From an uncultured Planctomycetales bacterium (lineage in GTDB: Bacteria; Planctomycetota; Phycisphaerae; UBA1845; JAFGLZ01), in assembly GCA_964596165.1 (NCBI GenBank), contig CAZQTW010000007.1, forward strand, positions 73,496-137,495: a stretch of 64,000 nucleotides of DNA, given 5' to 3'. Below the pieces are notes generated by a model. That model was given only the letters and a program-made list of their open reading frames with translations. It was not told the origin of the DNA and ran no database searches. A program made the translations under genes and the position numbers. Every line of letters begins with the position of its first letter. Position 1 is the stretch's first letter. Shown here piece by piece: positions 31,978-43,882 of this stretch.

Positions 31978-31980
31978 ACC

Positions 31981-33180
31981 GTGCCTTGGTTTGAATATGA
32001 AGGGGTGTGTCCCGGCGGGACGGCGATTGCGGGCCGAGTCGAGGCCGAGAGCCACGACGCGGCACAGCGGCTCCTCGGCGAGACGATGCGGGTTGTCCTG
32101 AGCGAAGTGCGCGAGGCGAAGCCACCACCCGCAAAGGCTGCCATCGGAGAAGCGGACCTCATCTTCTTCAACGAACAACTGGCCTCATTGGCCTCGGCGG
32201 GACTGGCGCTCGACGAAGGGCTTCAACAGCTCGCCCGTGATGTCGACTCGCCTCGGCTTCGAGGCTTCATCGAGGCGGTGGCGGTGGACCTTCGCCGCGG
32301 CGAGACCATCGAGCAGGCGATCGCCAAGCACGAAGCTCAATTACCTTTGCTCTACAGCCGAGTCATTCGCGCCGGCGTCCAGAGCGGTCAGCTCCCCGCA
32401 ACGCTGCTGAACCTCAACCAGCACCTGCGGCTCATGGGCATGACGCGCCAGGTCCTTTGGGAGATTCTGGCGTACCCCATCTTCGTACTGGTGGCCGGGC
32501 TGATAATCGTGTCGCTCTTTTTCATCAAGGTCGTGCCGCAGTTCAAGGAGATCTTTTACGACTTTGGATCAAAACTCCCAGGACCTACGCTTCTATTGCT
32601 TAGGGTGGCCGACTCGTTTCCACGTATCCTCATTGCGGTGGGCGTCATTGCCGTCCTCATTGTTGTCGGGTGGCAACTTCTGAAGCTGACGCCCGGTGGC
32701 CGACGATTTCGAGAGCGCTTCGTGGCCGCCATTCCCATCGTGGGGCGAGTCTATCGTGCCTCGCTGGTCTCGCGATTCGTCCGGTCGGTGGCCACCAGCG
32801 TCCAGGCGGGCGTCACGCTGCCCGAGGCCCTTCGACTGGCGGGCGGCGCTACCGGGAGTCCCGGACTGGGCGTCGAGGCCGACCGAATCGCCGCCGACGT
32901 CGAGCGGGGCGGGTCGATCTTCGAGGCCTCACAACTCTGCCAATGGATACCCGCCATCTTCGGATACACGGTTCAGGTGGCATTAGGTCGCGACGCGTTG
33001 TCATCCGCCCTGATGCAGCTTTCGGACACCTACGAATCACGCGCAACCCACTATCAATCGATGTTGCGAGTCATCATGTTCCCTGTCGTGGTGATCCTCG
33101 TCGGCGGCTTCATTGCATTGGGTGTGATCGGGCTTTTCCTGCCGCTGGTAAGCCTGGTCAACGCGGTGAGCGGCGGCTGA
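31981..33180 (+). CDS. Type II secretion system F (GspF/PilC) platform protein
   Basis: 399 aa. Two T2SSF repeats (FFNEQLASLASAGLALDEGL...; FVRSVATSVQAGVTLPEAL...), three TM segments and a PQFKEIFYDFGSKLPGPT linker. GTG start. Confidence 0.85.
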   Translation: MPWFEYEGVCPGGTAIAGRVEAESHDAAQRLLGETMRVVLSEVREAKPPPAKAAIGEADLIFFNEQLASLASAGLALDEGLQQLARDVDSPRLRGFIEAVAVDLRRGETIEQAIAKHEAQLPLLYSRVIRAGVQSGQLPATLLNLNQHLRLMGMTRQVLWEILAYPIFVLVAGLIIVSLFFIKVVPQFKEIFYDFGSKLPGPTLLLLRVADSFPRILIAVGVIAVLIVVGWQLLKLTPGGRRFRERFVAAIPIVGRVYRASLVSRFVRSVATSVQAGVTLPEALRLAGGATGSPGLGVEADRIAADVERGGSIFEASQLCQWIPAIFGYTVQVALGRDALSSALMQLSDTYESRATHYQSMLRVIMFPVVVILVGGFIALGVIGLFLPLVSLVNAVSGG

Positions 33181-33208
33181 GTCTTGTCGTGCAACGAGGT
33201 GGCGACCC

Positions 33209-34885
33209 ATGTTGGTCTTCCCGATCCTCTTTGTGGCCCTGGTCCTGTTCACCGGCGGGGTCGCCCTGGCCGTCACGGAGCGACGGCGGGGTATCGCCCG
33301 TACCGTCGTTCGCCAGATGGCCATGGTGACGTCGCAGAATCTGCCGCTCGGCACCGGCCTGATGCTCGCGGGCAGAGGCGAACGGGGAAAGGCCGGCAGA
33401 ATCCTCCAGCGCGTCGCCGATCTGGTTTCCCAGGGCGTGCCGCTGGGCGAGGCCGTCGTGCAAGGCTACCCCAATTGCCCGGGCCTGATCGTCAGCGTCA
33501 TTCAGGCCGCCCAGCAGGTGGGGCGACTGGCCGGCGCCTTGCGCATGCTGAGTCGCGATCTGGACCGGCACGAGCGGCGTCGGTCGAAGATCATGCCGCT
33601 GGCGATCATCTACGCACTGTTCCTGTTGTTCGTCCTGCTCATCGTGTGGACGAGCATCATGATCGTCATCGTGCCGAAATTCAAAGAGATATTCTCCGAC
33701 TTCGGGGCGAAGCTACCGGGGGTAACTGTCTTCGCCATGCAGTTATCCGAGGACGTGGCCAACCGAATCCTCATTCCGGTGGCGGTCTTCTGGCTGGTCC
33801 TGGCCATTCCGTTCGGATTGTACCGCCTGTTCCGCCCTCGGGCGTCGGGTCGATCCAAAGGTCGCGACACCGTCGTAATCTTGCTCCGCGTCGTGGTGGT
33901 GTTGATGTTGCTCGTGCTGGTCGGCATGGTCTCTTCGCCAATCTCTGTCCTTTCCAGGACGGGTTGGAATCCGACCATCCTATTGGCTTCTCCGCCCGGC
34001 GACTTCGCCAGGTTGGATCCGCTCGTGACACTTGCCGTTTTGGTAGTGGTCTTGGCGCTCGTAGTGGGGTTCAACCGCATCGTGTGGTACCGTTCCGGCT
34101 ATCCACCTGAACTACTGAGTCGAATTGTTCAGCAGATCCGCCGTGTGAGGATCCAGGGCGTGGCCGCCGCGTTTCTCTGCGTGGTCATCCTGATGGAACT
34201 GGCCGTACTGTTCATGATCGTGGGACTGTTTCTGTTCCGGCCGGCCGGCCTCGCGATGAGTCTCACCGATATCCGGCGCCACGGCGTTGAGTGTGTCGTC
34301 GAGATGCCGTGGGTGCCGCTGGGTATTGTTGGATTCTTTCTGGCAATTCCACTGAGTCTGCACTGGGTGTTTCGATCTCGCCGGCCGGCGCGACCTTTCA
34401 CAGCCTCCGTGATCGCCGACGGCGTTCGATGGCGCATGCCCGGCCTCGGACGAATGCAGATGGCCGAGGGCATGGCGACGTTCGCCTCGCTCCTTCGACT
34501 CTTCGTGGGCGCGGGGATGCCGCTGGGTCGGGCCGCCGCTCTCGCCGGCGAGGCGGACATGAATGCCGTGCTGCGTCAGCGGGTCCGACGGTTTGCGGAA
34601 ATGATCGATCTCGGAACGCCGCCGCCCATGGCGGCCGACCAGGCCGGCCTCGGCATGATCCTCGCCACCGCGCTGCGGAGCGGACAAGTCGGCGACCGAT
34701 TGGATGCGTCGCTGCGATTCGCGGCCGACTACTACCGATCGATCGTCAGTCGGTTCTGGATCGTCCTCCGCACGATCATGTGGCCGGTGCTAACGCTGAT
34801 CATGGCCGTTCTCGTCGGGACGTTCGTCGCGGCGATGTTCCTGCCGCTCGTGGCCCTTATCAATGCGGTCCTGGAAACGGTGTGA
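33209..34885 (+). CDS. Divergent GspF-like platform paralog with a large multi-TM insertion
   Basis: 558 aa. It has an extra N-terminal TM and T2SSF repeat 1 (VTSQNLPLGTGLMLA...), then PKFKEIFSDFGAKLPGVT. An insertion of about 190 aa (residues about 210-400) carries at least 4 hydrophobic helices. T2SSF repeat 2 follows (FASLLRLFVGAGMPLGRA...). Confidence 0.75.
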   Translation: MLVFPILFVALVLFTGGVALAVTERRRGIARTVVRQMAMVTSQNLPLGTGLMLAGRGERGKAGRILQRVADLVSQGVPLGEAVVQGYPNCPGLIVSVIQAAQQVGRLAGALRMLSRDLDRHERRRSKIMPLAIIYALFLLFVLLIVWTSIMIVIVPKFKEIFSDFGAKLPGVTVFAMQLSEDVANRILIPVAVFWLVLAIPFGLYRLFRPRASGRSKGRDTVVILLRVVVVLMLLVLVGMVSSPISVLSRTGWNPTILLASPPGDFARLDPLVTLAVLVVVLALVVGFNRIVWYRSGYPPELLSRIVQQIRRVRIQGVAAAFLCVVILMELAVLFMIVGLFLFRPAGLAMSLTDIRRHGVECVVEMPWVPLGIVGFFLAIPLSLHWVFRSRRPARPFTASVIADGVRWRMPGLGRMQMAEGMATFASLLRLFVGAGMPLGRAAALAGEADMNAVLRQRVRRFAEMIDLGTPPPMAADQAGLGMILATALRSGQVGDRLDASLRFAADYYRSIVSRFWIVLRTIMWPVLTLIMAVLVGTFVAAMFLPLVALINAVLETV

Positions 34886-34887
34886 TC

Positions 34888-35319
34888 ATGAGAGGTGCAA
34901 CCCAAGACATCGTTGCACGTGATGCCGTGCTCGGCGTGCCTGTCGCTGCATCGGCGCGCCGGGGCATTATCAACACGGAGATGATGGCGAGCATCGTGAT
35001 CCTGATGCTCGTCGCCGGACTTCTGCTGGCGATGTCGTCCGCCTACGTGCGGTCCCGCGGTGATCTGATGCGCGAGCGCGTGCTGCGGCTTGCCGCTCAG
35101 GCCCAACTGGAGCGGTACCGGGCCGGTGTTCGACTGGACACACCGCCGCCGGCTGACACTCTCCCCGACGGCGTCACACTGAAGACGACCACCACGCCCG
35201 GCAGCGGCGTGTGGACCGGCATGACCCAGGTGACGGTGACGGCCAGCGCGCTCGACGTCAAGAAGCGGGAGCACCACGTAACGATCTCCGGCTATCTTCG
35301 GGAGGTATCGACGAAATGA
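34888..35319 (+). CDS. Pseudopilin-like protein with degenerate prepilin signal
   Basis: ATG is 2 nt after the preceding stop. ...SARRG|IINTEMMASIVILMLVAGLLLA has Gly at -1, Glu at +5 and a hydrophobic helix. 143 aa. Confidence 0.5.
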   Translation: MRGATQDIVARDAVLGVPVAASARRGIINTEMMASIVILMLVAGLLLAMSSAYVRSRGDLMRERVLRLAAQAQLERYRAGVRLDTPPPADTLPDGVTLKTTTTPGSGVWTGMTQVTVTASALDVKKREHHVTISGYLREVSTK

Positions 35320-35840
35320 CCCCTACCCGACCCAGAGCCTTCACGCTGTTCCACACGCTGATGGCCGTCACGCTGGCCGGTGTCGCACTGAGCATCGGAA
35401 TGCCGATGATCATGCAATCGATCGGAATCCAGAAGCGGGTTTCAATGTGGGTGAATGATGACGCCGTAACCCAGCAGATCATCCGGCAGGTGCGCCGCGA
35501 TATGTCGTCAGCAAACCAGGTGGAGATCGTTCAAGATCAATTCCCCGTCCTGCTGCTGCGCGGGCCCGTAGGCCAGGTGCGATATGAGAATACGCCCGAT
35601 GGCATCGTCCGCCTCGCGACGCCGACGGGCCGAACGCCTTCTCGGTCGCTCTACCCACTTCGTCGCTCGGTGATTGACTGGCGTTGCGAGCGGGTCGATG
35701 CGGGAGGCACCATCATCTGGCTCGTCGTGGAAATCCGCGATCCCGTTGGAAAGCAGCGCGGGAAGACCGTCACCATGAACCAGCGATATGCCACCGCGTT
35801 GCGTCCGGGCATATCGGCGAGGCAGGAGGACGTGCGATGA
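35316..35840 (+). CDS. Pseudopilin-like protein (atypical: Ala -1, His +5)
   Basis: ATGA start/stop overlap at 35316-35319. The N-terminus is MTPTRPRA|FTLFHTLMAVTLAGVALSIG. 174 aa. Confidence 0.45.
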   Translation: MTPTRPRAFTLFHTLMAVTLAGVALSIGMPMIMQSIGIQKRVSMWVNDDAVTQQIIRQVRRDMSSANQVEIVQDQFPVLLLRGPVGQVRYENTPDGIVRLATPTGRTPSRSLYPLRRSVIDWRCERVDAGGTIIWLVVEIRDPVGKQRGKTVTMNQRYATALRPGISARQEDVR

Positions 35841-36226
35841 GGCGCAGGGGCTTCGGGCTCATCCTGGTTCTGGCCGTCATGACGCTGGTCGGAACGGCGC
35901 TCACGCTCATGGCGTTGCACGTGGGACAGTTGGCGCGGCAGCGTCAGCACGATCGCGCCCGAACGTTCGCGCAGGTCGTGCTCGACAGCGGAGTGGCCTA
36001 TGCCCGTTCACACCGGGGCCCGGTCGCTACGGCGCCCAGCACCACCGAGGTTGCGCTTCCGACGGAAGGCCTCTTGCCCGCGCCGGCCAGGGCAAGCCTT
36101 ACGCTCCAGCCGGCCGACGACGGATCGATCCGCGTCATTGCACGCGTCGACTACGGCCGCGCCCACGCCACCGAAGAGGCCGTGATCGCGACGACAGTCC
36201 CGGCCGGCAGGCCACGAACGCCGTAA
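35837..36226 (+). CDS. GspK-like or minor-pseudopilin-like small protein
   Basis: ATGA overlap at 35837-35840. The N-terminus MRRRGFGLILVLAVMTLVGTAL resembles GspK N-termini. 129 aa. Confidence 0.4.
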   Translation: MRRRGFGLILVLAVMTLVGTALTLMALHVGQLARQRQHDRARTFAQVVLDSGVAYARSHRGPVATAPSTTEVALPTEGLLPAPARASLTLQPADDGSIRVIARVDYGRAHATEEAVIATTVPAGRPRTP

Positions 36227-36425: not shown

Positions 36426-37754
36426 CTACGCCCCCTTTGTCCGCCCCATCCATCCCAGTTCGGGCAGATCGCCGAGGGCGTCTCGGAATAGGCGGTAGTA
36501 CAGCAGTTCTTCCTTGCTGTTGAGCCGCCAACCGTTGGAGAGCGTGCGCTCGCGGAGGAACTCACCGTCCGGAATGCTCTCATCGGCATGGCGCGCCAGA
36601 AGGTCGCCGACGCCGGTTCCCTCCCAGAACTTCGCCTTGGTGCGACGTCGCACCGGTTCAGGCAGATCCTCGCCGATCGCCTGTCGAAGAATCCATTTCT
36701 CAATGCCGTTATGAAGTTTCAGTTCCGCCGGGATCCTCAGGGCGTATTCGACGACGATCGGGTCAAGAAACGGTACCACCGCCAGCAGACCGTGGGCCTG
36801 CGAACAACGATCCACGCGCTGAAGAGCGGTGTTGTGAAGCCGTGCAATGATATCCAATAGTTCGGCGGCCAGCTTCTCTCTCGGCAGGGCCTTCAGGTAG
36901 TCGTAGCCGGCGAAGAGTTCGTCGCCGCCCTCTCCGGAGAGGACGGCCGGCACGAATGAGGCGGCCGCCTTGCCCGCCGAATAGTTCATGACACTCGAAC
37001 GGACCAACAGGGCGTCAAACGATTCCAGGTGGCGAATCACCTCCGGCAGACGGCGCAGCACGTCGCGAAGCGAGAGCATAATCTCGTGATGCTCGCTGCC
37101 GATGAAATCGGCGACCTGCCGTGCGTACACCAAGTCCGGAGCGCCCGCAAGACCCGTGGCGAATGTGTGCAGGACCTTCACGTGTCGGCGGGCCAACGCC
37201 GCCAGGATGCTCGAGTCCAGCCCACCGGACAGCCAGACCCCGATGCCGTCCACGCCGAACGACTTGACCACAGCCGACTCCAGTCGGTTTCGGAGCTCGG
37301 TGGCGATGCGACCGGCCGACTCGTCCAAGATCGGACCGGGTTGTATGCCGGAGCACGAGGGTGCAACCAAGCCGTCGTGTTGCCCTCCCGGCGGCAATTC
37401 AAAGACGTCCGACGTCACGGTGAGCAGGGACTTCACTTCCGAGGCAAAACACAACGTGCCGTTCTGCGTGCGCCCGAAATACAACGGGGCCACACCCATC
37501 GCATCACGGTCCAGCATCAGATGATCCCGCCGCCAGGCGGCCCGGGCGAACCGCCCGTCGCCCGAGGCGTCCTGGACGGTCGCCTCGGCCATGCTCAGAC
37601 TGCCCGGCTGTGCCCGTGGCCACACGGCGCCCAACGTGACTTCGCCGGCTTCGAAGACCTCACGGCCGGCGCCGCCGCGGTGAATCATCACCTCCAACAT
37701 CCGTCGGACGTCTTCCCGGCGGCCGGCTTGAGCGATTCCTGCAATCCCCGCCAT
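36426..37754 (-). CDS. Asparagine synthetase B-family protein lacking the N-terminal Cys nucleophile
   Basis: The N-terminus is MAGIAGI (canonical MCGIxG), and the Ntn domain is short. PP-loop VWLSGGLDSS, then LSGEGGDELFAGY. 442 aa. Confidence 0.85.
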   Translation of the reverse strand: MAGIAGIAQAGRREDVRRMLEVMIHRGGAGREVFEAGEVTLGAVWPRAQPGSLSMAEATVQDASGDGRFARAAWRRDHLMLDRDAMGVAPLYFGRTQNGTLCFASEVKSLLTVTSDVFELPPGGQHDGLVAPSCSGIQPGPILDESAGRIATELRNRLESAVVKSFGVDGIGVWLSGGLDSSILAALARRHVKVLHTFATGLAGAPDLVYARQVADFIGSEHHEIMLSLRDVLRRLPEVIRHLESFDALLVRSSVMNYSAGKAAASFVPAVLSGEGGDELFAGYDYLKALPREKLAAELLDIIARLHNTALQRVDRCSQAHGLLAVVPFLDPIVVEYALRIPAELKLHNGIEKWILRQAIGEDLPEPVRRRTKAKFWEGTGVGDLLARHADESIPDGEFLRERTLSNGWRLNSKEELLYYRLFRDALGDLPELGWMGRTKGA

Positions 37755-37758
37755 TCTG

Positions 37759-39645
37759 CTACCTCCACGCGGATCGCGCCGATTCCATGCCGCTGAGTGT
37801 CCGTCGCACGCGGTCCGCCGCGGACACGGGCATCCCGTGCTCGTCCACCACCTTGACCGCCCCGTGGATCACACGCGTTTTCCACTCGACCGCCCGGCGG
37901 AATTCGTCACGGCATTCCCATAGGTAAGGAACGGGGAGAAATCCCGCCGCGAAGATTCGGTATAGCCCCTCGGCGCTGTATGCCTGCGGTATCGACCTTT
38001 CAATTCCGTCGATTACGACGCGGGCCTCGCCGAGCAATTCGTCAGTCCTGTGCATGACCTCCGGATGATGCGTCATGTCGTCCACCGCCCCCGTTGCCCG
38101 AAGCCGGCGGTATTCAGTCAGGGCGTGCCGGATGATCTGGATGCTCTCATCCACTACGGAGGGATCCGCCAGGTGAGAGGCCTCCGAGTAGCTTACGACA
38201 TGGATGATCGGCGGACTGCCGGTGTCGCGGGGCTCGATGTCGTCCATCAGCGCGGTCACGGCGGCAAGCTGGGCCTTGGCCGTTTCCAGATCCGACGAGA
38301 AGTAGTCCAGTCCGGCGCGAGGCTGAAGGATCACGCGGAAGGTCCTGCTTTGAAGTCCTCGGAGCAGGTAGAGCATCGCTCGGGACTTGGCAAGGTCCTG
38401 GACTCCCCAGGTAGTCTTCGGCGTGTTAAGCATGTTCTGGAGGATCAAGCAGCCTATCCCCGATTGCTTCGCCGCCCTGGCCGCCAGATAGGCCGAGACC
38501 ACATACGTCACGTCGTCGGCACCGCGAAACGCGAAATGGTGTGGGACGTTCGGCTCGAACGGCTTGCCCGTCTCGACCACGCATCGCAGCGTTTCGAAAT
38601 GCTGTTCGAGATTCTCTCGGAGGGAATAGGGGCCCCTTCCATCAATCCGGCAGAACCACCAGAGGGACAGGGCGTGCCAGGCGATGTGGATGGTCCGCTC
38701 GTACATTCGAGCCAACTCGGGGATGTTCCGTGTCCCCGCGTAGGCGCGGACCAGCATCGGGCGGGCTGCGGCCCATACGGCGGAAAACTCTTCCGGGGAA
38801 TTCAACGGCACGCCGCCACCGTTCGGCAAGCCACCCCAATCCATGCCGAAATGCGACTGCGTGAGTTGCGACGTCCCGATGGACAGGACATCCAGGAATC
38901 CCGACGCGGCGAGCCGCCGAGTCCAGTCGAGGAACAATCGGACCGCCTCGTCTCGATCAGGAAGGTACGGACCGACATGCGCACGCATCAACGGAAGCGC
39001 CCGTGCCTCCGTTGCCGCCCTCAGCCTCGTTGCGACCGTATCCCGCTCGGTTCCAAACCCGTCGTAGCCGCCCCGGGCGGGCGGGCGAACGGCCATGTAT
39101 TTCCCCTTGGCGACGAGGTCCTTGCCGAACGCGAGACGGGCGTCGTCATAGGCGACGCCTTGTACCCAATCACCGGGGAGGACGGCCGGATCGATCCCCA
39201 GCATTCGCAGCGTCTCGCCCGACGTTTCGTCGCCCGTGAAGACGCCCGCGACGCTGGGTACTCGACGACGAACGAGTTCACACGTTTGCGGAAGCCCGGC
39301 GAAGTAGATTCCCTTCAAGGGGCCGCCTTGGTCGGCCCACAGACGGCGGCTCTTGAGCAGATGGATCAGGCGCTCGAACGTCTCGGCGCCTTCGGCCGGG
39401 TCAAGTCGAAAGCTGAAGCCGAGAACGGTAATACGATTCTCGGCAAGCCACCGCTCGATGATCGCCGGGGAATCGGCATCGTCCAGTTGGCCGAAGGCCC
39501 CACAGGTCCGGGCGTCCGCAATCACGGTCCGGACGCCGCACGCCTCCAGGAGCTGCTGAACGGAGAAGAGCCCAAGCGTGTGCGCGTCGAGGGCCGGCCG
39601 GACCAGCCCGAAGCCGTCCTCTCGTGTGATCGGCGTGTTCTTCAT
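37759..39645 (-). CDS. Cobalamin-binding-domain protein fused to a large barrel-like domain (glutamate-mutase S+E-like, tentative)
   Basis: The N-terminal 140 aa carries DAHTLGL (a D-x-H-x-x-G B12-binding signature) followed by VLGFSFRL and IYFAGLP. The remaining 480 aa shows pattern resemblance to GlmE (MRAHVG..., PNGGGVPLN, VRAYAGTRN). The combined size equals GlmS plus GlmE. Confidence 0.6.
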   Translation of the reverse strand: MKNTPITREDGFGLVRPALDAHTLGLFSVQQLLEACGVRTVIADARTCGAFGQLDDADSPAIIERWLAENRITVLGFSFRLDPAEGAETFERLIHLLKSRRLWADQGGPLKGIYFAGLPQTCELVRRRVPSVAGVFTGDETSGETLRMLGIDPAVLPGDWVQGVAYDDARLAFGKDLVAKGKYMAVRPPARGGYDGFGTERDTVATRLRAATEARALPLMRAHVGPYLPDRDEAVRLFLDWTRRLAASGFLDVLSIGTSQLTQSHFGMDWGGLPNGGGVPLNSPEEFSAVWAAARPMLVRAYAGTRNIPELARMYERTIHIAWHALSLWWFCRIDGRGPYSLRENLEQHFETLRCVVETGKPFEPNVPHHFAFRGADDVTYVVSAYLAARAAKQSGIGCLILQNMLNTPKTTWGVQDLAKSRAMLYLLRGLQSRTFRVILQPRAGLDYFSSDLETAKAQLAAVTALMDDIEPRDTGSPPIIHVVSYSEASHLADPSVVDESIQIIRHALTEYRRLRATGAVDDMTHHPEVMHRTDELLGEARVVIDGIERSIPQAYSAEGLYRIFAAGFLPVPYLWECRDEFRRAVEWKTRVIHGAVKVVDEHGMPVSAADRVRRTLSGMESARSAWR

Positions 39646-39648
39646 GCT

Positions 39649-41271
39649 TCAAGGCCCCCCCCCGACGACCGACGGCGCTCCGCCGACCGGTTGGGGCGCG
39701 GGCTCCACGCCCACAACCAAAAGGCGAATGTCCTTCACGGACATCCCGGACAAGCCGAGACGCGCGACCGTTCGACCTTGTTTCCAGAAGTCCACGCCAT
39801 GCATGGCACAGGCCATGTGAACGACGGCGTTTATCATCGGCGTGGGAACCTTGAGCATCTCGCCCAGGCCGGCAATCGGGACGAGACTCGCCGGAACGTC
39901 CTCATAAATGTATCGGTGGAGGACGGTCCCGGGCGCCCGGATGCCCCGGTAGCCGGGGTTGGCCCGCATGGCCTCAAACAGGGTCCGTCCGGCGGCGTCG
40001 TAGGCATGATAGAGCCATTCCCGCGCGGTGTACGCGCGGATGCCCAGGGCGGCGGCTACGCTCACGCGCTCGCGGTCGACGGCCTCGAGCACGGCGGCCA
40101 CGGCCGGCGTTACCCCTTCCACGTAGTATTCGAAGTCCCCGTGCGTGTCCTCAATCCGCCCCGCGTTCAGAATCGTGATGGCGGGGTGAAACACCGCGCC
40201 CACGTTGTCCAGACTCGTTTTCAGCACATTGTCGCCGGGCACGAACTGAGGCAAGGCCTTCCGGATGATCGGGAGAATGTCGGCGATGTGGTAGGCGGGC
40301 AATGCCGCCAGGGGGACGGAGTTCTTGATTCCATAAATGTGGACTTGGCCCGGATTCGTGGCTCGCGCCGCATAGAGCAGCGTCTGCGCCTCGGCGATGT
40401 AAGGACGAACGGAAGGATTGCTTTCCTTCAAGACCTGCGCGACCTCCAGCGCACCGCCGGTCCTGCCGGGGTTCAGGACGATGATCTGACCGTCCTTGAC
40501 GTGTGGAGCAATGAGATGCGCCACATCGCGATGCGCGGTGGCGGGGACAACGATCATCAGGATGTCCATGTTGTCCACGGCCTCGGCCACGTCGCTCGTG
40601 GCCAGATTGATCCGCGCGAATCCTTCGACCTCGCCCGTCACCTCGAGACCTTCTCGGGATCGGACGGGATCGATGCGAGACGGCGTGCGGTTGAAGAGAT
40701 TCACCTTGCACCCGCCAATCGCGAGGTGGGCGGCCATCGCCATGCCCCCGTGCCCCGCACCCAGCACGCAAAACGAAGGCAGCCCCTCGGCGGCCACAAT
40801 GTCGCCCAGAGGTCCCTCCGCTGCTCGTACGACGTCGATGAGCTCCGCAGCCGAACGAACCCGTTGCAGGGACTCCAGAACACCGTCCGATCCGCACAGC
40901 CTCGCCAAACGCCCCAGGATGCGCAGGTGCAATACCTGCGCCACCGGCGGACCCAGGAGCAGGAAGATGAGATGGACCTTCGTGTTCGTGGACGGACACC
41001 ACGAAACGCCGGAGCGCGATATCCCCACCGCCACGAGCAACTGCCTGCAGGACGTCGTCGACGCGTGCGGAACGGCGATGGTCAGCGGACCCGCCGGAAC
41101 GATGGTCGGGCCTGAGCGCTCCCGCGCGAGGATGTCCTTGCCGGCCGCCGCGGTGTCAAGGGGCCTTACGGAGGCAATGGCCGAGACCAACCGTTGGATC
41201 GCGTCCTCCTTCGAAACCCCCTCCAGATCCAAGAGCACGGCCTCGGGCACGAGGATGTCCGCGACACGCAT
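39649..41271 (-). CDS. Fusion of a PTS EIIA(Ntr)-like domain and an NAD(P) opine (octopine/nopaline) dehydrogenase family domain
   Basis: ATG at 41271 follows GGAGG at 8 nt. The N-terminal 150 aa (ILVPEAVLLDL...ERERSGPT...IAVPHAS...VHLIFLLLGP) is PtsN/EIIA-2-like with the conserved His. The C-terminal 380 aa aligns along its length with Arthrobacter CENDH-type opine dehydrogenases (VLGAGHGGMAMAAHLA, IVVPA, LNPGRTGGALE, YYVEGVTP, NPGYRGI, YIYEDVP). Confidence 0.85.
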   Translation of the reverse strand: MRVADILVPEAVLLDLEGVSKEDAIQRLVSAIASVRPLDTAAAGKDILARERSGPTIVPAGPLTIAVPHASTTSCRQLLVAVGISRSGVSWCPSTNTKVHLIFLLLGPPVAQVLHLRILGRLARLCGSDGVLESLQRVRSAAELIDVVRAAEGPLGDIVAAEGLPSFCVLGAGHGGMAMAAHLAIGGCKVNLFNRTPSRIDPVRSREGLEVTGEVEGFARINLATSDVAEAVDNMDILMIVVPATAHRDVAHLIAPHVKDGQIIVLNPGRTGGALEVAQVLKESNPSVRPYIAEAQTLLYAARATNPGQVHIYGIKNSVPLAALPAYHIADILPIIRKALPQFVPGDNVLKTSLDNVGAVFHPAITILNAGRIEDTHGDFEYYVEGVTPAVAAVLEAVDRERVSVAAALGIRAYTAREWLYHAYDAAGRTLFEAMRANPGYRGIRAPGTVLHRYIYEDVPASLVPIAGLGEMLKVPTPMINAVVHMACAMHGVDFWKQGRTVARLGLSGMSVKDIRLLVVGVEPAPQPVGGAPSVVGGGP

Positions 41272-41321
41272 GCCATGACCCTCCGCGGGCGTCATTCCTC
41301 GATCGATGCTCGGCCGAGGGC

Positions 41322-41666
41322 TCACCCTTTCCATGCAGCGACGCCACGGGCCGAAAACCACAGAAGCAGAGCAAAGATCAGCAGAAGCGCGGCGTACCTC
41401 CTCCAGTGTCCGAGCGATGCCGGTTGACCCCACGCAGTCAGCCCGCCGAACCTCCTGATGTCCAGATACCGCACGGCCATGAGCAAGACGATGATCGCCC
41501 AAAACACCAGGTCGGCCGGACCCAGCGCATACGCCGCGCCATCCGAGATCACCTTCGCGCAAAGCAGCAGACACAAATTCCCGATCAGCATCCAGAACAG
41601 CCTGGCCAAACAACCGCCAGGACGCCCTTGTGAACTCGATGTCAATTCGTCCTCAACAGGCATCAT
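41322..41666 (-). CDS. Small integral membrane protein (3 predicted TM helices), function unknown
   Basis: ATG at 41666/41663 is preceded by GGAGG. It has hydrophobic segments and lies 50 nt upstream of the EIIA-opine-DH gene. It is preferred over the Arg-rich N-terminal extension of ORF 39649..41613 in another frame. Confidence 0.6.
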   Translation of the reverse strand: MMPVEDELTSSSQGRPGGCLARLFWMLIGNLCLLLCAKVISDGAAYALGPADLVFWAIIVLLMAVRYLDIRRFGGLTAWGQPASLGHWRRYAALLLIFALLLWFSARGVAAWKG

Positions 41667-41942
41667 CTAGCCTCCGGTAGCGGAACCTCCGTCCCGACCC
41701 GTAAGGGTGGCGGCCCGACCCTCCCGATTGCCTGCCGGCGCTCACGCGCCGGTACCCTTCTCAGAGCCGAAGCGCCCTCGGACATGCTGCGGCCCTGTCG
41801 ATCACCATGTTGTGAAGCGTCCCATCTCCATTGCCCAGCCTTGTCGCTGAGGCCTTCGCACGGTTGCTCGATCCCACCGTGCGTCTCGCGGCCACCACGA
41901 CTTCTCTCGATTCGCGAGACCGGCCGCAAGGATCGCGGTCCT

Positions 41943-42440
41943 CTATCGCCCGCCCCGGATGCCTCGCCACGTGCCGTCCGTGTCCGCCCGGGCGTGCTCC
42001 AAGCAGTATCGAGCCCACGGAATCGCGCGAAGGCGGGCCTTGGAAATGGGCCGCCGTGTCGCCTCGCAAATCCCGTAGGTCCCGTTTCGGATCCGCTGGA
42101 GCGCATCATGAATCTCGTTCAGCAACAAGCGTTCCCGTTCCAACAGACCGATCGCGAATTCCTGTTCCCACGTGTCGGTGGCCGATTCGGCCGGGCTGCT
42201 CATCCCGGGATGCCCTCTCTGCTCGCCCGTCTGACTGCGGCCCGATGCCTCCTTGCGAAGCGAAGTGAGGTCTCCCAAGAGCTCTCGCCGCTTGGCCAGA
42301 AGGGCCTCACGAAACTCCTTCAATTCGGCGGGGGCGAATCGATGCCCGCGCGAAAACCCCGTCCCCGAGCCGCGACCCGATGGGCCGGTGTCACGTCTGA
42401 GCCTGTTGCCGGAATGCACTGTCCTTTGGCGCGATCTCAT
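41943..42440 (-). CDS. DksA/TraR-family protein with a two-Cys (CxxT-N17-CxxH) finger
   Basis: Coiled-coil region (ELKEFREALLAKRRELLGDL) followed by RIRNGTYGICEATRRPISKARLRAIPWARYCLEHA. Confidence 0.75.
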   Translation of the reverse strand: MRSRQRTVHSGNRLRRDTGPSGRGSGTGFSRGHRFAPAELKEFREALLAKRRELLGDLTSLRKEASGRSQTGEQRGHPGMSSPAESATDTWEQEFAIGLLERERLLLNEIHDALQRIRNGTYGICEATRRPISKARLRAIPWARYCLEHARADTDGTWRGIRGGR

Positions 42441-42474: not shown

Positions 42475-42825
42475 CTACGTCGACGCCCGCTGCCACGCAT
42501 CGACACGCTTCTTGCGCCGGAGCCTCTGCCTTCGGTCGAACGTGCTTCTGAGCCGGCGCTCCATGCGAATCACCGCACGACCGATGGCGGTCTCCGCGTC
42601 GACTTCCGTGGCCCTGACCGCCAGCTCGCCCGAGGGGATCGTCTTGACCTCGATCCGGCACTGTTGGTCGTGCCCGCCTCGCGGACCGTTCACGTCGTCC
42701 AGGCGAACCACCACCTGGCGGATTCGGCGCTCAAAACGACTCAATGCGAATGCAAGACGACGCCCCACGAAATTACGGAGCGATTGGCTGTCTAGGTCGT
42801 TCTTCGCAAAAACCTGGAAGTCCAT
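42475..42825 (-). CDS. Short HPF/RaiA-family ribosome-associated protein
   Basis: ATG at 42825 is preceded by GGAG. MDFQVF...LRNFVGRRLAFALSRFERRIRQVVVRLDDVNGPRGGHDQQCRIEV...AIGRAVIRMERRL matches the short NGPRGG-containing HPF subfamily. Confidence 0.7.
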   Translation of the reverse strand: MDFQVFAKNDLDSQSLRNFVGRRLAFALSRFERRIRQVVVRLDDVNGPRGGHDQQCRIEVKTIPSGELAVRATEVDAETAIGRAVIRMERRLRSTFDRRQRLRRKKRVDAWQRAST

Positions 42826-42958: not shown

Positions 42959-43882
42959 ATGGAATGGCTCAACTACCACCATCTGCTCTACTTCTGGGTC
43001 GTGGCGAAGGAAGGAACCATTGCGGCGGCCTGCAAGCGACTGCTTCTGACACAGTCGACGATTTCCGCCCAACTCCATGCCCTGGAAAAGGCCCTGGGAC
43101 GGAGGCTCTTCGACCGCATGGGTCGAAACCTTGTCCCCACCGAGGCCGGACGTCTGGTCTACCGATACGCCGATCAGATCTTTGCGTTGGGGTCCGAATT
43201 GCTCGATGTCGTGAAGGGAAGGCCCTCGACCCCTCCGATCCGGTTGAACATCGGCGCGCACGATGTCTTGCCGAAGCTGGTGGCCTATCGCCTGCTCGAA
43301 CCCATTCTACGTTTCCCAAAGCCGGTCCACATCGTATGCTTCGAAGGGACCCCGACGCAGTTGCTGCCCAGACTGGCGGTTCGCGAAGTGGACCTCGTCT
43401 TGACCGACACCCCCATCGACCCGCACATCCGGGTTCGCGCGTACAGCCATCCGTTGGGCGAGTCCGGGATCGGCTTCTACGCGGCACCCAAGCTCGCTCG
43501 CCGTTTGCGAATCGGTTTTCCCCAGTCGCTTCACCACGCGCCGGCGCTCCTGCCCACCGACAACACCGCCATGCGACGCAGCCTGAACCGGTGGTTCGAT
43601 GCCGTGGGCGTCCGGCCCAAGGTGGTGTCGGAGTTCGAAGACAGCGATCTCATGATGGTGTTCGGGCGCGACGGCCGGGGGTTCTTCCCCGGCCATGATG
43701 TCATCGCCAACGAAATCATCGAGGGATTCCATGTGGAGTCTGTCGGTACCATCCAACGTCACCGAGAACGCTTCTACGCCGTGACCGCCGAACGCCAGCC
43801 CCGCCATCCGGCCGTGATGGCCTTGACGCGAACGCCGCGGAAGACCAAGTCTCCCGGGCCCGACCCACCGTTGCCCATCTGA
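42959..43882 (+). CDS. LysR-family transcriptional regulator, NhaR-like
   Basis: The N-terminal LNYHHLLYFWVVAKEGTIAAACKRLLLTQSTISAQLHALE resembles the NhaR HTH. A LysR substrate-binding domain follows. Confidence 0.85.
   Translation: MEWLNYHHLLYFWVVAKEGTIAAACKRLLLTQSTISAQLHALEKALGRRLFDRMGRNLVPTEAGRLVYRYADQIFALGSELLDVVKGRPSTPPIRLNIGAHDVLPKLVAYRLLEPILRFPKPVHIVCFEGTPTQLLPRLAVREVDLVLTDTPIDPHIRVRAYSHPLGESGIGFYAAPKLARRLRIGFPQSLHHAPALLPTDNTAMRRSLNRWFDAVGVRPKVVSEFEDSDLMMVFGRDGRGFFPGHDVIANEIIEGFHVESVGTIQRHRERFYAVTAERQPRHPAVMALTRTPRKTKSPGPDPPLPI

What the first reader, a model, noticed from the sequence alone, without database searches (positions are those of the whole stretch)
36426..41666. Tightly coupled operon: membrane protein, EIIA(Ntr)::opine dehydrogenase, B12-binding mutase-like protein, Cys-less AsnB-like enzyme; candidate undescribed small-molecule pathway
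Seen in sequence:
- Four co-directional minus-strand genes have gaps of 50, 3 and 4 nt. These are TGA-agc-ATG at 39643-39651, and ATG at 37752-37754 four nt after TAG at 37759-37761. This implies co-translation.
- The domains are called from the motifs listed in the feature table.

Established knowledge:
- Opine dehydrogenases catalyse NAD(P)H-dependent reductive condensation of an amino acid with a 2-oxo acid.
- GlmS/GlmE-type adenosylcobalamin mutases rearrange amino-acid carbon skeletons.
- AsnB-family members without the Cys nucleophile (beta-lactam synthetase, carbapenam synthetase, lasso cyclases) use the PP-loop domain for ATP-dependent amide or lactam formation.
- EIIA(Ntr) domains are phospho-regulated sensors.

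Inference: the combination suggests synthesis or catabolism of a rearranged, N-alkylated (opine-like) and amidated or cyclised amino-acid derivative, under PTS(Ntr)-type control. The small membrane protein could be an exporter or anchor. I do not recognise any characterised pathway with this gene set.
Basis: partly seen in the sequence, partly recalled or inferred. Interest (0 to 1): 0.8.

Follow-up and report, generated by a model that had tools for sequence, protein, structure and literature searches.

The report
Salt-riboswitch operon: opine dehydrogenase plus B12 mutase
This is a real, widely conserved but uncharacterised bacterial operon that pairs an opine dehydrogenase with a vitamin-B12 mutase and an amide-forming enzyme, and a lithium/sodium-sensing RNA switch in front of it suggests that it makes a new small molecule during salt stress.

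Summary
The four minus-strand genes and their 50/3/4-nt gaps are as described, and all domain calls hold.

- **Genes.** They encode a PTS EIIA domain fused to an opine dehydrogenase (ODH), a 628-aa B12-binding domain fused to a glutamate-mutase-E-like barrel, and a Cys-less AsnB-like enzyme.
- **Conservation.** The ODH + mutase pair is the conserved core: relatives occur in 341 species representatives across many phyla. The AsnB-like gene accompanies it in about 40% of loci and the EIIA fusion in about 30%. The 114-aa membrane gene is not part of the module.
- **New regulatory context.** An nhaA-I (Li+/Na+) riboswitch lies at 41705-41757, in the operon leader. The same riboswitch sits directly 5' of ODH/mutase operons in at least five other lineages. 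An NhaR-type regulator, MscS-type channel genes, a Na+/H+ exchanger and citrate-to-2-oxoglutarate enzymes recur nearby.
- **ODH specificity.** The ODH carries the Arg/Gly pair shown experimentally to confer preference for acidic amino acids plus pyruvate.
- **Best reading.** A cation-induced pathway converts glutamate or an aspartate-type acid into a rearranged, N-carboxyethylated, amidated solute.

The chemistry is inferred, not shown. I found no paper describing this pathway.

The parts
41705..41757 (-). nhaA-I (Li+-I / Na+-II class) riboswitch aptamer in the 5' leader of the gene string
   Evidence: Rfam RF03057 scores 42 bits (gathering score 37), E 5.7e-5 for the whole window. Homologous instances lie 5' of the same operon in other lineages. 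Covariation supports the fold: 11 of 15 pairs show compensatory changes and 0 of 500 shuffles reach the observed score.
41322..41666 (-). 114-aa predicted membrane protein, the first gene after the riboswitch; not part of the conserved enzyme module
   Evidence: The ORF is. It has no Pfam or NCBIfam hit. Homologues occur only in L008 (59% identity, directly after a riboswitch) and L006 (31%, next to a riboswitch on the opposite strand).
39649..41271 (-). EIIA-ODH fusion protein (540 aa from the ATG at 41271): a regulatory PTS EIIA_2 domain plus an NAD(P)H opine dehydrogenase
   Evidence: Pfam hits are. The ODH part matches PDB 1bg6 (CENDH/ArODH) at E 4e-83. The start codon was read.
40828..41253 (-). 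EIIA_2 domain, with its phospho-acceptor His at about 41065-41067
   Evidence: PF00359, E 2.2e-19. The His of the 'PHA' motif is invariant in 14 EIIA-ODH fusions.
39721..40776 (-). Opine dehydrogenase domain. It has Arg ('NPGRTGG', codon about 40462-40464) and Gly ('DNVGAVFHP') at the positions equivalent to ArODH A111 and N198
   Evidence: The positions come from the alignment to 1bg6. PMC10787698 shows that this R/G pair sets acidic-amino-acid specificity. The domain is 50% identical to the Anaerolinea thermophila ODH, E 1e-124.
37759..39645 (-). 628-aa fused B12-binding (GlmS-like) + GlmE-like TIM-barrel protein: a putative adenosylcobalamin carbon-skeleton mutase of unknown substrate
   Evidence: - AF2 model: pLDDT 82.5.
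- Foldseek top hits: glutamate mutase E chain 1cb7_B (E 1.8e-9) and ornithine 4,5-aminomutase 3kp1_A (E 4e-8).
- hhalign against a GlmE alignment: probability 85.6%, E 5.6e-6.
- Distant relatives hit PF06368, or are fused to the MutL reactivase.
39571..39588 (-). DAHTLG, the (D/E)xHxxG cobalamin lower-ligand motif (His22)
   Evidence: His22 and Gly25 are invariant in 22 homologues. A family profile matches the B12-binding domains of PDB entries 4jgi, 2yxb, MetH and HCM over this motif.
36426..37754 (-). 442-aa AsnB-like PP-loop amide synthetase with a dead, shortened glutaminase domain (Cys1 replaced by Ala, no NGEIYN); PP-loop SGGLDSS at about 37209-37229
   Evidence: PF00733, E 1e-58. E. coli AsnB 1ct9, E 7e-46. 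NF006949 scores 304.6 bits, below its cut-off of 499. In the alignment of operon-linked homologues, 16 of 20 are Cys-less and 4 keep MCGI.
42959..43882 (+). NhaR-type LysR regulator, divergent from the minus-strand gene string; a likely additional Na+-responsive regulator (inference)
   Evidence: NCBIfam NF008284 'transcriptional activator NhaR' scores 227.7 bits (cut-off 219). Orthologues are divergent from and directly adjacent to EIIA-ODH in L008 and L009, and are present in L006, L016 and L081.

Best explanation
The locus is a cation-stress-induced biosynthetic operon for an undescribed small molecule, most likely an anionic or zwitterionic compatible solute of the opine type.

Shown here:
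- An nhaA-I riboswitch lies in the leader. Published work describes this class as a Li+- or Na+-activated ON switch.
- An NhaR-type regulator lies next door.
- The ODH carries a PTS EIIA domain with an intact phospho-acceptor His.
- The enzymes are an ODH of the 'acidic amino acid + pyruvate' type, a fused GlmS-GlmE-like B12 protein, and an AsnB-like adenylating enzyme that cannot hydrolyse glutamine.

Inferred mechanism:
1. When intracellular Na+/Li+ rises, the riboswitch (and NhaR) turns the operon on.
2. Glutamate, fed from citrate to 2-oxoglutarate, is rearranged by the adenosylcobalamin mutase to a 3-methylaspartate-type acid. Alternatively the mutase acts on the N-substituted product of the ODH.
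3. The ODH condenses the acidic amino acid reductively with pyruvate, using NADPH, to give an N-(1-carboxyethyl) derivative.
4. The AsnB-like enzyme adenylates an aspartate-type carboxylate and amidates it with free ammonia, removing one negative charge.
5. The EIIA domain lets the phosphorylation state of the nitrogen-PTS (a readout of K+/nitrogen status) tune ODH activity.
6. In other lineages, MscS-type channels encoded in the same operon would release the solute on osmotic downshift.
For: **Gene identities.**

**Conservation.**
- The mutase has more than 2,898 homologous clusters at 64-76% identity across Planctomycetota, Armatimonadota, Verrucomicrobiota, Desulfobacterota, Acidobacteriota and others.
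- 341 GTDB species representatives encode a relative.
- In 80 fetched loci, an ODH is adjacent in about 58, an AsnB-like gene is present in about 31, and EIIA is fused to the ODH in about 25.

**Salt link.**
- The nhaA-I riboswitch lies in the window leader.
- It sits directly 5' of, and co-directional with, the enzyme genes in L048 (Lentisphaerae), L007 (Phycisphaerae), L079 (Holophaga), L092 and L008. Weaker variants lie in the same position in L004 and L024.
- Covariation supports the RNA fold.
- Published function: Li+-activated ON switch, with Na+-sensing variants. Cation riboswitches are known to precede osmoprotectant genes such as ablA and eam (PMC9646797, PMC9337991).
- An NhaR equivalog lies next to the operon in 6 loci.
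- MscS or MscS-like TM proteins occur in 20 loci, often between the ODH and mutase genes.
- A Na+/H+ exchanger is co-directional in L090. A P-type cation ATPase lies in L031.

**Carbon link.** Citrate synthase lies inside the operon in L024. Isocitrate dehydrogenase lies directly upstream of the ODH in L003 and L091. Aconitase is adjacent in L092.

**ODH specificity.**
- The window ODH has the Arg/Gly pair at ArODH positions 111 and 198. So do 50 (Arg) and at least 36 (Gly) of 53 operon ODHs.
- Mutagenesis shows that this pair switches preference to L-Asp/L-Glu with pyruvate and NADPH (PMC10787698).
- The nearest cultured relative of the characterised enzyme mODH-45 is Anaerolinea thermophila. 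Its ODH gene lies 72 nt downstream of a B12-binding protein homologous to the window mutase (34% identity, E 5e-63).

**Amidation rather than lactam formation.** Four operon-linked AsnB homologues keep MCGI and EIYN, as normal glutamine amidotransferases do. The window protein is much closer to AsnB (E 7e-46) than to beta-lactam synthetase or CarA (E 1e-14 to 4e-16).

**Recurrent third enzyme.** Elsewhere the third enzyme is another carboxylate-amide ligase: an ATP-grasp protein, or a glutathione-synthetase-like domain fused to the mutase.
Against: - No product, substrate or activity is known for the mutase or the AsnB-like enzyme.
- The window protein does not itself reach any GlmE sequence model.
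- Motif-level mapping suggests that two of the five glutamate-contacting residues of GlmE are replaced: Arg100 by Gln263 and Glu171 by His324. Free glutamate may therefore not be the substrate. This mapping is low-confidence.
- A riboswitch was found in only about 8-10 of about 85 loci. It was absent from 26 loci scanned with Rfam.
- The validated ligand of most nhaA-I RNAs is Li+, and their usual target is nhaA, not biosynthesis.
- An N-carboxyethyl-aspartate-type product would still be anionic after one amidation, which is unusual for a compatible solute.
- In Bacteroidota and some other loci the pair sits in polysaccharide clusters. In Tissierellia the mutase lacks an adjacent ODH and sits next to amino-acid ABC importers. 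The module's product may therefore serve several ends.
- No MutL/GlmL reactivase or B12-supply gene lies within 10 kb.
- In the window, the riboswitch's first downstream gene is the membrane protein. Read-through into the enzymes is inferred only from the 50-nt gap and the lack of a predicted terminator.
Confidence: 0.5

Rival explanations
1. The operon makes an opine-type aminopolycarboxylate metallophore or chelator, analogous to staphylopine and pseudopaline. The ODH performs the last reductive condensation, and the product is exported to bind metal cations. These might include cations whose homeostasis is disturbed by Li+/Na+.
For: - The ODH family includes the CntM enzymes (from established knowledge; papers listed).
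- The predicted product has three carboxylates and a secondary amine.
- An MFS transporter follows the operon in L092.
- A TonB-dependent receptor follows the mutase in Rikenellaceae loci.
- A CitMHS transporter lies near the module in a few loci.
Against: - No nicotianamine-synthase-like CntL and no metal-importer operon accompanies the pair.
- The regulators are Li+/Na+ sensors and NhaR, not Zur, Fur or Nur.
- The recurrent channel partners are MscS-type, not exporters.
- The Rikenellaceae loci with the TonB receptor lack the ODH.
Confidence: 0.12
2. The operon is catabolic. The ODH runs oxidatively to split an imported opine or N-carboxyalkyl amino acid. The mutase then feeds the released acidic amino acid into a methylaspartate-type fermentation route.
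For: - ODH reactions are reversible (established knowledge).
- Many hosts are anaerobes, including amino-acid-fermenting Tissierellia. In those loci the mutase sits beside polar-amino-acid ABC transporters and an M20 amidohydrolase.
- GlmE-type mutases are classically fermentative.
Against: - An ATP-consuming amide synthetase is part of the operon.
- No methylaspartate ammonia-lyase or mesaconase lies nearby.
- No importer is present in the window locus.
- Citrate synthase, aconitase and isocitrate dehydrogenase neighbours argue for precursor supply.
- The riboswitch is activated by a cation, not by a substrate.
- The characterised relatives prefer NADPH.
Confidence: 0.1
3. The ODH + mutase module makes a modified amino acid that is attached to cell-surface glycans or other acceptors by an amide ligase. 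The window operon would be the free-acid/amide version of that chemistry, and the salt-related neighbours would be incidental.
For: In five loci (L068, L076, L080, L083, L085) the pair is joined to an ATP-grasp L-amino-acid-ligase-like gene. There it sits among a flippase, GT2, DegT-type aminotransferase and CapD-like genes. In L004 a GT4 glycosyltransferase lies between the riboswitch-like element and the mutase.
Against: - The window and most PVC, Planctomycete and Desulfobacterota loci have no glycan genes.
- The ODHs in the polysaccharide loci are only 34-39% identical to the window ODH, so they may be a separate subfamily.
- The salt-related neighbours recur across phyla and are therefore not incidental.
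Confidence: 0.08

Closest known systems
Glutamate mutase (GlmS/GlmE, EC 5.4.99.1; PDB 1cb7/1ccw) and its reactivase GlmL/MutL
   Same: - It has a B12-binding Rossmann domain with the (D/E)xHxxG His-on motif.
- It has a GlmE-like TIM barrel with the C-terminal domain: Foldseek E 1.8e-9, hhalign probability 85.6%.
- Relatives of the family are fused to MutL.
- Arg221 and Arg300 sit where the GlmE carboxylate-binding residues Arg66 and Arg149 sit (motif-level inference).
   Different: - The two subunits are fused, with the B12 domain N-terminal.
- There is no direct sequence-model hit (PF06368 and PDB searches are negative for the window protein).
- The residues equivalent to GlmE Arg100 and Glu171 appear to be Gln263 and His324.
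- There is no methylaspartate ammonia-lyase or GlmL gene nearby.
- It is paired with an ODH and is under cation-riboswitch control.
Metagenomic acidic-amino-acid opine dehydrogenases mODH-45/47/48/49/55/582 (Telek et al. 2024, PMC10787698) and Arthrobacter ArODH/CENDH (PDB 1bg6)
   Same: - The fold and the catalytic His are the same.
- It is 48-53% identical to the mODHs.
- It has the same Arg/Gly specificity pair.
- The closest cultured relative of the mODH-45 source also has the B12-mutase gene next to its ODH.
   Different: - The window enzyme carries an N-terminal EIIA domain.
- Its own substrates are untested.
- The published enzymes were studied as biocatalysts, with no physiological role or genomic context given.
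- Their poor kinetics with L-Asp (KM about 25 mM, kcat about 1 per s) suggest that the natural substrate is something else.
N-acetylglutaminylglutamine amide (NAGGN) pathway with the AsnB-type amidotransferase AsnO; asparagine synthetase B
   Same: An AsnB-family PP-loop enzyme amidates a carboxylate of an amino-acid-derived osmolyte. The PP-loop and the SGEGxDE motif are conserved.
   Different: - The window enzyme lacks the Cys nucleophile and part of the glutaminase domain, so it must use free ammonia or another amine.
- It is below the cut-off for TIGR03104 and NF006949.
- Its partners are an ODH and a B12 mutase, not a GNAT/ATP-grasp Ngg.
Li+-I / Na+-II (nhaA-I) and Na+-I riboswitch regulons (White et al. 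2022, PMC9646797, PMC9337991)
   Same: The aptamer consensus is the same and the score is above the Rfam threshold. There is precedent for cation riboswitches controlling osmoprotectant genes (otsA, ablA, eam) and mscS.
   Different: The published list of associated genes contains no ODH, B12 protein or AsnB-like gene. The ligand (Li+, Na+ or other) of these particular variants is unknown.
Staphylopine/pseudopaline biosynthesis (CntL-CntM)
   Same: An ODH-family enzyme makes an N-carboxyalkyl amino-acid product.
   Different: There is no CntL, CntK or metal-uptake gene. The ODH belongs to a different clade. The regulators are salt-type.

Membership tests
GlmS/GlmE-type adenosylcobalamin carbon-skeleton mutase | B12-binding Rossmann domain with the DxHxxG His-on motif | tested here: met
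   DAHTLG is present, with His22 and Gly25 invariant. The family profile hits the B12 domains of 4jgi (E 6e-6), 2yxb (E 7e-5), MetH and the HCM small subunit. 25 of 42 family members hit PF02310. The window protein alone is sub-threshold at 17.5 bits.
GlmS/GlmE-type adenosylcobalamin carbon-skeleton mutase | GlmE-type TIM-barrel catalytic subunit | tested here: met
   Foldseek top hits are 1cb7_B and 6h9e_B (E 2e-9 to 4e-9, TM-score by target 0.59) and 3kp1_A. hhalign against a GlmE alignment gives probability 85.6%, E 5.6e-6, over the C-terminal half. 7 of 42 relatives hit PF06368.
GlmS/GlmE-type adenosylcobalamin carbon-skeleton mutase | Direct match of the protein itself to the family sequence model (PF06368) | tested here: not met
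   There is no PF06368 hit at E <= 0.01, no NCBIfam hit and no PDB sequence hit.
Glutamate mutase (substrate = L-glutamate) | Substrate-binding residues Arg66, Arg100, Arg149, Glu171 and Tyr181 (C. cochlearium numbering, recalled from the literature) | tested here: inconclusive
   By motif and strand order, Arg221, Arg300 and Tyr340 fit. The positions of Arg100 and Glu171 appear to hold Gln263 and His324. The hhalign alignment of this half of the barrel is low-confidence.
Glutamate mutase operon | Accompanying GlmL/MutL reactivase and methylaspartate ammonia-lyase, as in E. coli O157 | tested here: not met
   Neither is present within 10 kb of the window gene or in the other loci examined. Only distant relatives are fused to MutL.
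Opine dehydrogenase (PF02317, ArODH type) | N-terminal GxGxxG NAD(P)-binding domain, C-terminal Octopine_DH domain and the catalytic His | tested here: met
   PF02317 scores 167.7 bits (cut-off 30). The match to 1bg6 has E 4e-83 over 352 residues, with His202 aligned to a His.
Acidic-amino-acid ODH subclass (mODH type) | Arg at ArODH position 111 and Gly at position 198 | tested here: met
   'NPGRTGG' and 'DNVGAVFHP' align to ArODH 'NPGATGG' and 'TNVNAVMHP'. The determinants come from PMC10787698. The pair is conserved across the operon ODHs.
EIIA(Ntr) / PtsN | PTS EIIA_2 fold with the phosphorylatable His | tested here: met
   PF00359 scores 70.3 bits (cut-off 27). The His of the 'PHA' motif is invariant in 14 fusions.
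EIIA(Ntr) / PtsN | Match to the PtsN equivalog model; stand-alone protein | tested here: not met
   TIGR01419 scores 36.7 bits against a cut-off of 138.7. The fruA-type EIIA model scores higher (55.1 bits). The domain is fused to the ODH.
Asparagine synthetase B (glutamine-hydrolysing) | N-terminal Cys nucleophile and an intact class-II glutaminase domain | tested here: not met
   The protein starts MAGIAGI, has no NGEIYN motif, and its N-domain is about 55 residues short. NF006949 scores 304.6 bits, below its cut-off of 499.
Asparagine synthetase B (synthetase half) | PP-loop SGGLDS and the SGEGxDE adenylation site | tested here: met
   LSGGLDSS and SGEGGDE are conserved in all operon-linked homologues.
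Beta-lactam synthetase / carbapenam synthetase / lasso cyclase (Cys-less AsnB relatives that form intramolecular amides) | Closer relationship to these enzymes than to AsnB; a family without glutaminase-competent members | tested here: not met
   1jgt has E 1e-14 and 1q15 has E 4e-16, against 7e-46 for AsnB 1ct9. Four operon-linked orthologues keep MCGI and EIYN.
nhaA-I RNA (Rfam RF03057; Li+-I / Na+-II riboswitch) | Score above the gathering threshold, with the two-hairpin fold and the conserved GGGU...AGG...GGUCGGGCCGCC core | tested here: met
   The score is 42 bits against a threshold of 37. Across 11 instances, 92.5% of cells are paired and 11 of 15 pairs covary.
nhaA-I RNA | Ligand (Li+ or Na+) and ON-switch behaviour | not testable with these tools
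   This is known only for the published representatives. The expression platform here could not be resolved.
NhaR (Na+-responsive LysR activator) | Match to the NhaR equivalog model above its cut-off | tested here: met
   NF008284 scores 227.7 bits against a cut-off of 219, over residues 1-290.

The most novel reading that the evidence does not exclude
This would be the first B12-dependent carbon-skeleton mutase dedicated to stress-solute synthesis, and it would define a new chemical class of bacterial osmolyte. That class would be an N-(1-carboxyethyl)-3-methylaspartate/asparagine-type 'opine amide' made from glutamate. Three layers of control would act on it: a Li+/Na+ riboswitch, NhaR, and an EIIA phospho-switch built into the ODH. 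The model would also give the published acidic-amino-acid ODHs their physiological substrate (3-methylaspartate or a relative). It would add a whole biosynthetic pathway to the Li+/Na+ riboswitch regulon.
Probability: 0.22. Interest if true: 0.88.

Novelty: new variant of a known kind. Interest (0 to 1): 0.78.

Why it matters
- **A new B12 enzyme family.** The 628-aa family is large (thousands of sequence clusters, hundreds of species, many phyla) and very conserved (about 65% identity between phyla). No Pfam or NCBIfam model detects it, and no function is known. Showing that it is a GlmE-type B12 enzyme with a fixed ODH partner defines a new B12-dependent reaction to look for.
- **A physiological context for the ODH.** The riboswitch, NhaR and MscS links give that reaction a testable context in salt/cation stress. 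They also extend the known regulon of Li+/Na+ riboswitches from transporters to a complete biosynthetic pathway.
- **A link to published enzymes.** The model explains why recently described metagenomic ODHs prefer acidic amino acids, yet use aspartate poorly.
- **Organisms to work with.** Cultured organisms are available for experiments: Anaerolinea thermophila and [Clostridium] ultunense.

Tried and rejected
- **Direct sequence searches for the mutase found nothing useful.** I searched the 628-aa protein, and a 22-sequence profile of close homologues, against PDB sequences. Homology to GlmE appeared only with a broader profile, by fold comparison, and through distant relatives.
- **hhalign could not map the active site.** Over the N-terminal half of the barrel, its alignments to GlmE were inconsistent between runs. 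The active-site mapping therefore rests on motif and strand order only.
- **PLP-dependent aminomutase (OAM/LAM type) is not favoured.** Ornithine aminomutase is the third-best fold hit. However, no invariant Lys exists in the B12 domain to carry PLP.
- **Lactam or cyclisation chemistry by the AsnB-like enzyme is rejected.** Cys-containing orthologues occur in the same operon position.
- **The membrane protein is not an exporter of the pathway.** It is not conserved with the enzymes.
- **Literature searches returned nothing relevant.** I searched for ODH + glutamate mutase, ODH + cobalamin, and ODH or methylaspartate + osmolyte.
- **Terminator and promoter scans were uninformative.** The counts were at chance level.
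- **Folding the leader gave no clear expression platform**.
- **B12 supply could not be checked.** The nearest candidate, a CbiA/AAA_26 gene, looks like a BioD-type protein rather than a cobalamin gene.
- **The 1021-aa plus-strand ORF at 38050-41115 is not a gene.** It is an antisense artefact of high G+C.

Full report
**1. Observation**

The four co-directional minus-strand ORFs exist as described.
- 41322-41666 encodes a 114-aa protein.
- 39649-41613 is the next ORF in the mechanical list. Its TTG start overlaps the upstream gene. An in-frame ATG at 41295 is an alternative.
- 37759-39645 encodes a 628-aa protein.
- 36426-37754 encodes a 442-aa protein.

The junctions read TGA-AGC-ATG and TGGAGGTAG-CAGA-ATG. 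In the second, the Shine-Dalgarno sequence overlaps the stop codon, which is a classic arrangement for translational coupling. Gene calls on three identical metagenome contigs agree, with lengths 113/540/628/442 aa. The operon ends where it converges with a plus-strand type II secretion/pilus cluster.

**2. What the genes are**

*EIIA-ODH fusion.* The protein has a PTS EIIA_2 domain (PF00359, E 2e-19) and an opine dehydrogenase (ODH) domain (PF02317, E 2e-49). The ODH part matches PDB 1bg6, the Arthrobacter N-(1-D-carboxyethyl)-L-norvaline dehydrogenase, at E 4e-83. The phospho-acceptor His of the EIIA domain is invariant in 14 such fusions. The domain is nevertheless far below the PtsN equivalog cut-off, so 'EIIA(Ntr)' is only a family-level label.

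*AsnB-like protein.* The adenylating half is well conserved: PP-loop LSGGLDSS, the SGEGGDE motif, and E. coli AsnB 1ct9 at E 7e-46. The N-domain begins MAGIAGI, lacks NGEIYN and is shortened, so glutaminase activity is impossible.

*628-aa protein.* It has no family assignment in Pfam or NCBIfam apart from a sub-threshold B12-binding hit. It has no sequence match in the PDB. Four lines of evidence place it with the glutamate-mutase type of B12 enzymes.
- It carries a (D/E)xHxxG motif (DAHTLG), with His22 and Gly25 invariant in 22 homologues.
- A profile of 42 family members matches the B12-binding domains of solved mutases and methionine synthase.
- An AlphaFold model (pLDDT 82.5, pTM 0.84) has the glutamate mutase E chain as its best structural match (1cb7_B, E 1.8e-9). 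Ornithine 4,5-aminomutase is next, and both are well separated from generic TIM barrels.
- Profile-profile comparison with a GlmE alignment gives 85.6% probability, E 5.6e-6. The GlmE alignment was built from the E. coli O157 gene.

In addition, relatives at 30-39% identity reach PF06368 (Met_asp_mut_E) or are fused to the MutL/GlmL reactivase.

The protein is therefore a fused GlmS-GlmE-like enzyme, most likely adenosylcobalamin-dependent. Its substrate is unknown. By motif and strand order, Arg221 and Arg300 occupy the places of the GlmE carboxylate-binding residues Arg66 and Arg149. The places of Arg100 and Glu171 seem to be taken by Gln263 and His324. This is inference only, because hhalign was unreliable over that half of the barrel.

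**3. Conservation**

The mutase family is large and unusually conserved. It has more than 2,898 90%-identity clusters, with 64-76% identity between phyla. It has 455 representatives at 50% clustering. Relatives occur in 341 of the GTDB species representatives. The cultured hosts include [Clostridium] ultunense.

In 80 fetched loci:
- an ODH is adjacent in about 58;
- an AsnB-like gene is present in about 31;
- EIIA is fused to the ODH in about 25 (Planctomycetota, Syntrophales, Lentisphaeria, Dehalococcoidales, Acidobacteriota).

The exact trio is found, for example, in a Desulfobacterota MAG. Armatimonadota have ODH-mutase-cyclase. Verrucomicrobia have mutase-ODH.

The 114-aa membrane protein recurs in only two related Planctomycetes. 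The core is thus ODH + mutase. The third enzyme varies but is usually a carboxylate-amide ligase: the AsnB-like enzyme, an ATP-grasp protein, or a glutathione-synthetase-like domain fused to the mutase.

Of 20 operon-linked AsnB homologues, 16 are Cys-less and 4 keep MCGI and EIYN. This argues that the reaction is ordinary amidation with ammonia and not lactam formation.

**4. Unexpected context: salt**

*Riboswitch.* An Rfam scan of the window gave a single hit. It is an nhaA-I RNA (RF03057) at 41705-41757 on the minus strand, about 40 nt upstream of the first gene (42 bits against a threshold of 37).

Rfam, and a covariance model built from the first instances, found the same RNA directly 5' of and co-directional with the enzyme genes in five other loci:
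- Lentisphaerae (L048: riboswitch, ODH, MscS-like, mutase, AsnB-like);
- Phycisphaerae (L007);
- Holophaga (L079);
- an unclassified contig (L092);
- a second Planctomycete (L008, two copies in tandem).

It also lies nearby on the other strand in L006 and L009. Weaker variants lie in the same position in Verrucomicrobia (L004) and Kiritimatiellia (L024). Across the 11 instances, 92.5% of cells pair and 11 of 15 pairs show compensatory changes, which no shuffle reaches. Twenty-six further loci scanned with Rfam had no riboswitch.

According to White et al. 2022, nhaA-I RNAs are Li+-activated ON switches that mostly control nhaA. Rare variants sense Na+. Some are associated with otsA, mscS and glycosyltransferase genes. 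No ODH, B12 or AsnB gene is on their list, which records only the first downstream gene. The companion paper notes that Na+ riboswitches precede osmoprotectant genes, including the aminomutases ablA and eam.

*Other salt-related neighbours.*
- The LysR gene at 42959-43882 passes the NhaR equivalog cut-off. Its orthologues are divergent from and directly adjacent to EIIA-ODH in L008 and L009, and occur in six loci in all.
- MscS or MscS-like TM proteins occur in 20 loci, often between the ODH and mutase genes.
- L090 has Na+/H+ exchanger-TauE-EIIA-ODH-mutase, all co-directional.
- L031 adds a P-type cation ATPase.

About a third of the loci carry at least one such element, although many contigs are short.

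**5. Precursor and chemistry clues**

Three different enzymes of the citrate-to-2-oxoglutarate branch turn up next to the module in separate lineages. Citrate synthase lies inside the operon in L024. Isocitrate dehydrogenase lies directly upstream of the ODH in L003 and L091. Aconitase is adjacent in L092. This points to 2-oxoglutarate or glutamate as the carbon source.

Telek et al. 2024 characterised six hot-spring metagenomic ODHs. Unlike all earlier ODHs, these prefer acidic L-amino acids (L-Asp, then L-Glu and cysteate), with pyruvate and NADPH. The authors showed by reciprocal double mutants that Arg at ArODH position 111 plus Gly at position 198 set this preference.
- The window ODH has exactly this pair, as do the operon ODHs in general.
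- It is 48-53% identical to these enzymes.
- The closest cultured relative of the mODH-45 source is Anaerolinea thermophila (92% identity). There the ODH gene lies 72 nt downstream of a 546-aa B12-binding protein that is homologous to the window mutase (34% identity, E 5e-63).
- The paper does not discuss genomic context, B12 or physiological role.
- The published KM for L-Asp is about 25 mM and kcat about 1 per s. This suggests that the natural substrate is a related acid.

**6. Best explanation**

Put together, the evidence fits a cation-induced biosynthetic pathway. Glutamate is rearranged by the B12 mutase to a 3-methylaspartate-type acid, or the mutase acts on the ODH product. The acid is N-carboxyethylated by the ODH with pyruvate and NADPH. 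An aspartate-type carboxylate is then amidated by the AsnB-like enzyme with free ammonia.

Control would come from three sources: the riboswitch, NhaR, and the EIIA domain built into the ODH. The EIIA link to K+/nitrogen status rests on established knowledge of PtsN. MscS-type valves accompany the module in many lineages.

The gene identities, their conservation and the riboswitch association are shown here. Induction by salt, the order of the steps, the substrates and the role as a compatible solute are inferred.

My confidence is about 0.9 for the enzyme assignments, 0.85 for cation-riboswitch control, 0.5 for a stress-solute role, and 0.2-0.25 for the specific chemistry.

**7. Rivals and caveats**

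A metallophore, a catabolic route and a glycan-decoration building block each have some support in particular lineages: TonB receptor or MFS neighbours, ABC importers in Tissierellia, and polysaccharide clusters in Bacteroidota. They fit the window locus less well.

Caveats:
- The riboswitch is found in a minority of loci.
- The usual nhaA-I ligand is Li+.
- The predicted product would remain anionic.
- There is no GlmL or B12-supply gene nearby.
- No direct GlmE sequence-model hit exists for the window protein itself.

**8. Novelty**

Every part belongs to a known superfamily. However, the mutase family is unannotated and its reaction is unknown. The ODH-mutase pairing is undescribed in the searchable literature. 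So is a biosynthetic operon under an nhaA-I riboswitch. I rate it a new variant of known kinds, with high interest.

Noticed in passing
window 41705-41757 (-): An nhaA-I (Li+/Na+) riboswitch lies upstream of the 114-aa membrane gene. The first-stage reader did not report it. It became central to the interpretation.
   Followed up: yes
window 42959-43882 (+): This LysR-family gene passes the NhaR equivalog cut-off (227.7 bits against 219). It is divergent from the minus-strand string.
   Followed up: yes
window 41943-42440 (-) and 42475-42825 (-): A DksA/TraR zinc-finger protein and an HPF/S30AE-like (ribosome hibernation, 'sigma-54 modulation') protein lie between the NhaR gene and the riboswitch, on the operon strand. 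Whether they belong to the same stress unit is unknown.
   Followed up: partly
window 38050-41115 (+): A 1021-aa ORF lies antisense to the ODH and mutase genes. It is an artefact of high G+C, not a gene. Similar antisense ORFs appeared in the related high-GC loci.
   Followed up: partly
window 47298-49610 (-): A 770-aa protein carries a hydrazine-synthase alpha middle domain (PF18582, E 8e-26). This is a curious domain outside anammox bacteria.
   Followed up: no
window 44076-46238 (-) and about 46.0-47.0 kb: A heparinase II/III-family protein lies here. According to the gene calls on the identical contig, a VIT1 (Fe/Mn transporter) gene is next to it.
   Followed up: no
window 30805-36226 (+): A type II secretion / type IV pilus-like cluster (T2SS E, two T2SS F genes, pseudopilin-like small genes) converges on the 3' end of the operon.
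   Followed up: no
L008 5538-5591 and 6381-6434 (+): Two nhaA-I riboswitches lie about 800 nt apart upstream of the homologous operon. The second directly precedes the homologue of the 114-aa membrane protein. White et al. 2022 mention tandem Li+-I riboswitches in environmental sequences.
   Followed up: partly
proteins P0170, P0205, P0242, P0238 (distant relatives of the mutase): Fusions of the B12/GlmE-like protein occur with a glutathione-synthetase/RimK-type ATP-grasp domain (P0170) and with the MutL/GlmL reactivase (1226-1266 aa). They are useful for inferring that the family is a true AdoCbl mutase whose product is ligated through a carboxylate.
   Followed up: partly
L093/L094 6288-9110 (Anaerolinea thermophila-type contigs): A B12-binding GlmE-like gene lies immediately upstream of the ODH that is 92% identical to the published biocatalyst mODH-45. 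No riboswitch is present there.
   Followed up: yes
L050, L063, L069, L071, L077 (Rikenellaceae): The mutase has no adjacent ODH here. It is flanked instead by PEMT-like, leucine-carboxyl-methyltransferase-like and SAM-methyltransferase genes and by a TonB-dependent receptor. This is a different, unexplained context.
   Followed up: no
L086 (E. coli O157:H7 Sakai 843-853 kb): This is the canonical glutamate mutase island: glmS-glmL-glmE, methylaspartate ammonia-lyase, a cob(I)alamin adenosyltransferase and fumA. I used it as the reference for comparison.
   Followed up: yes
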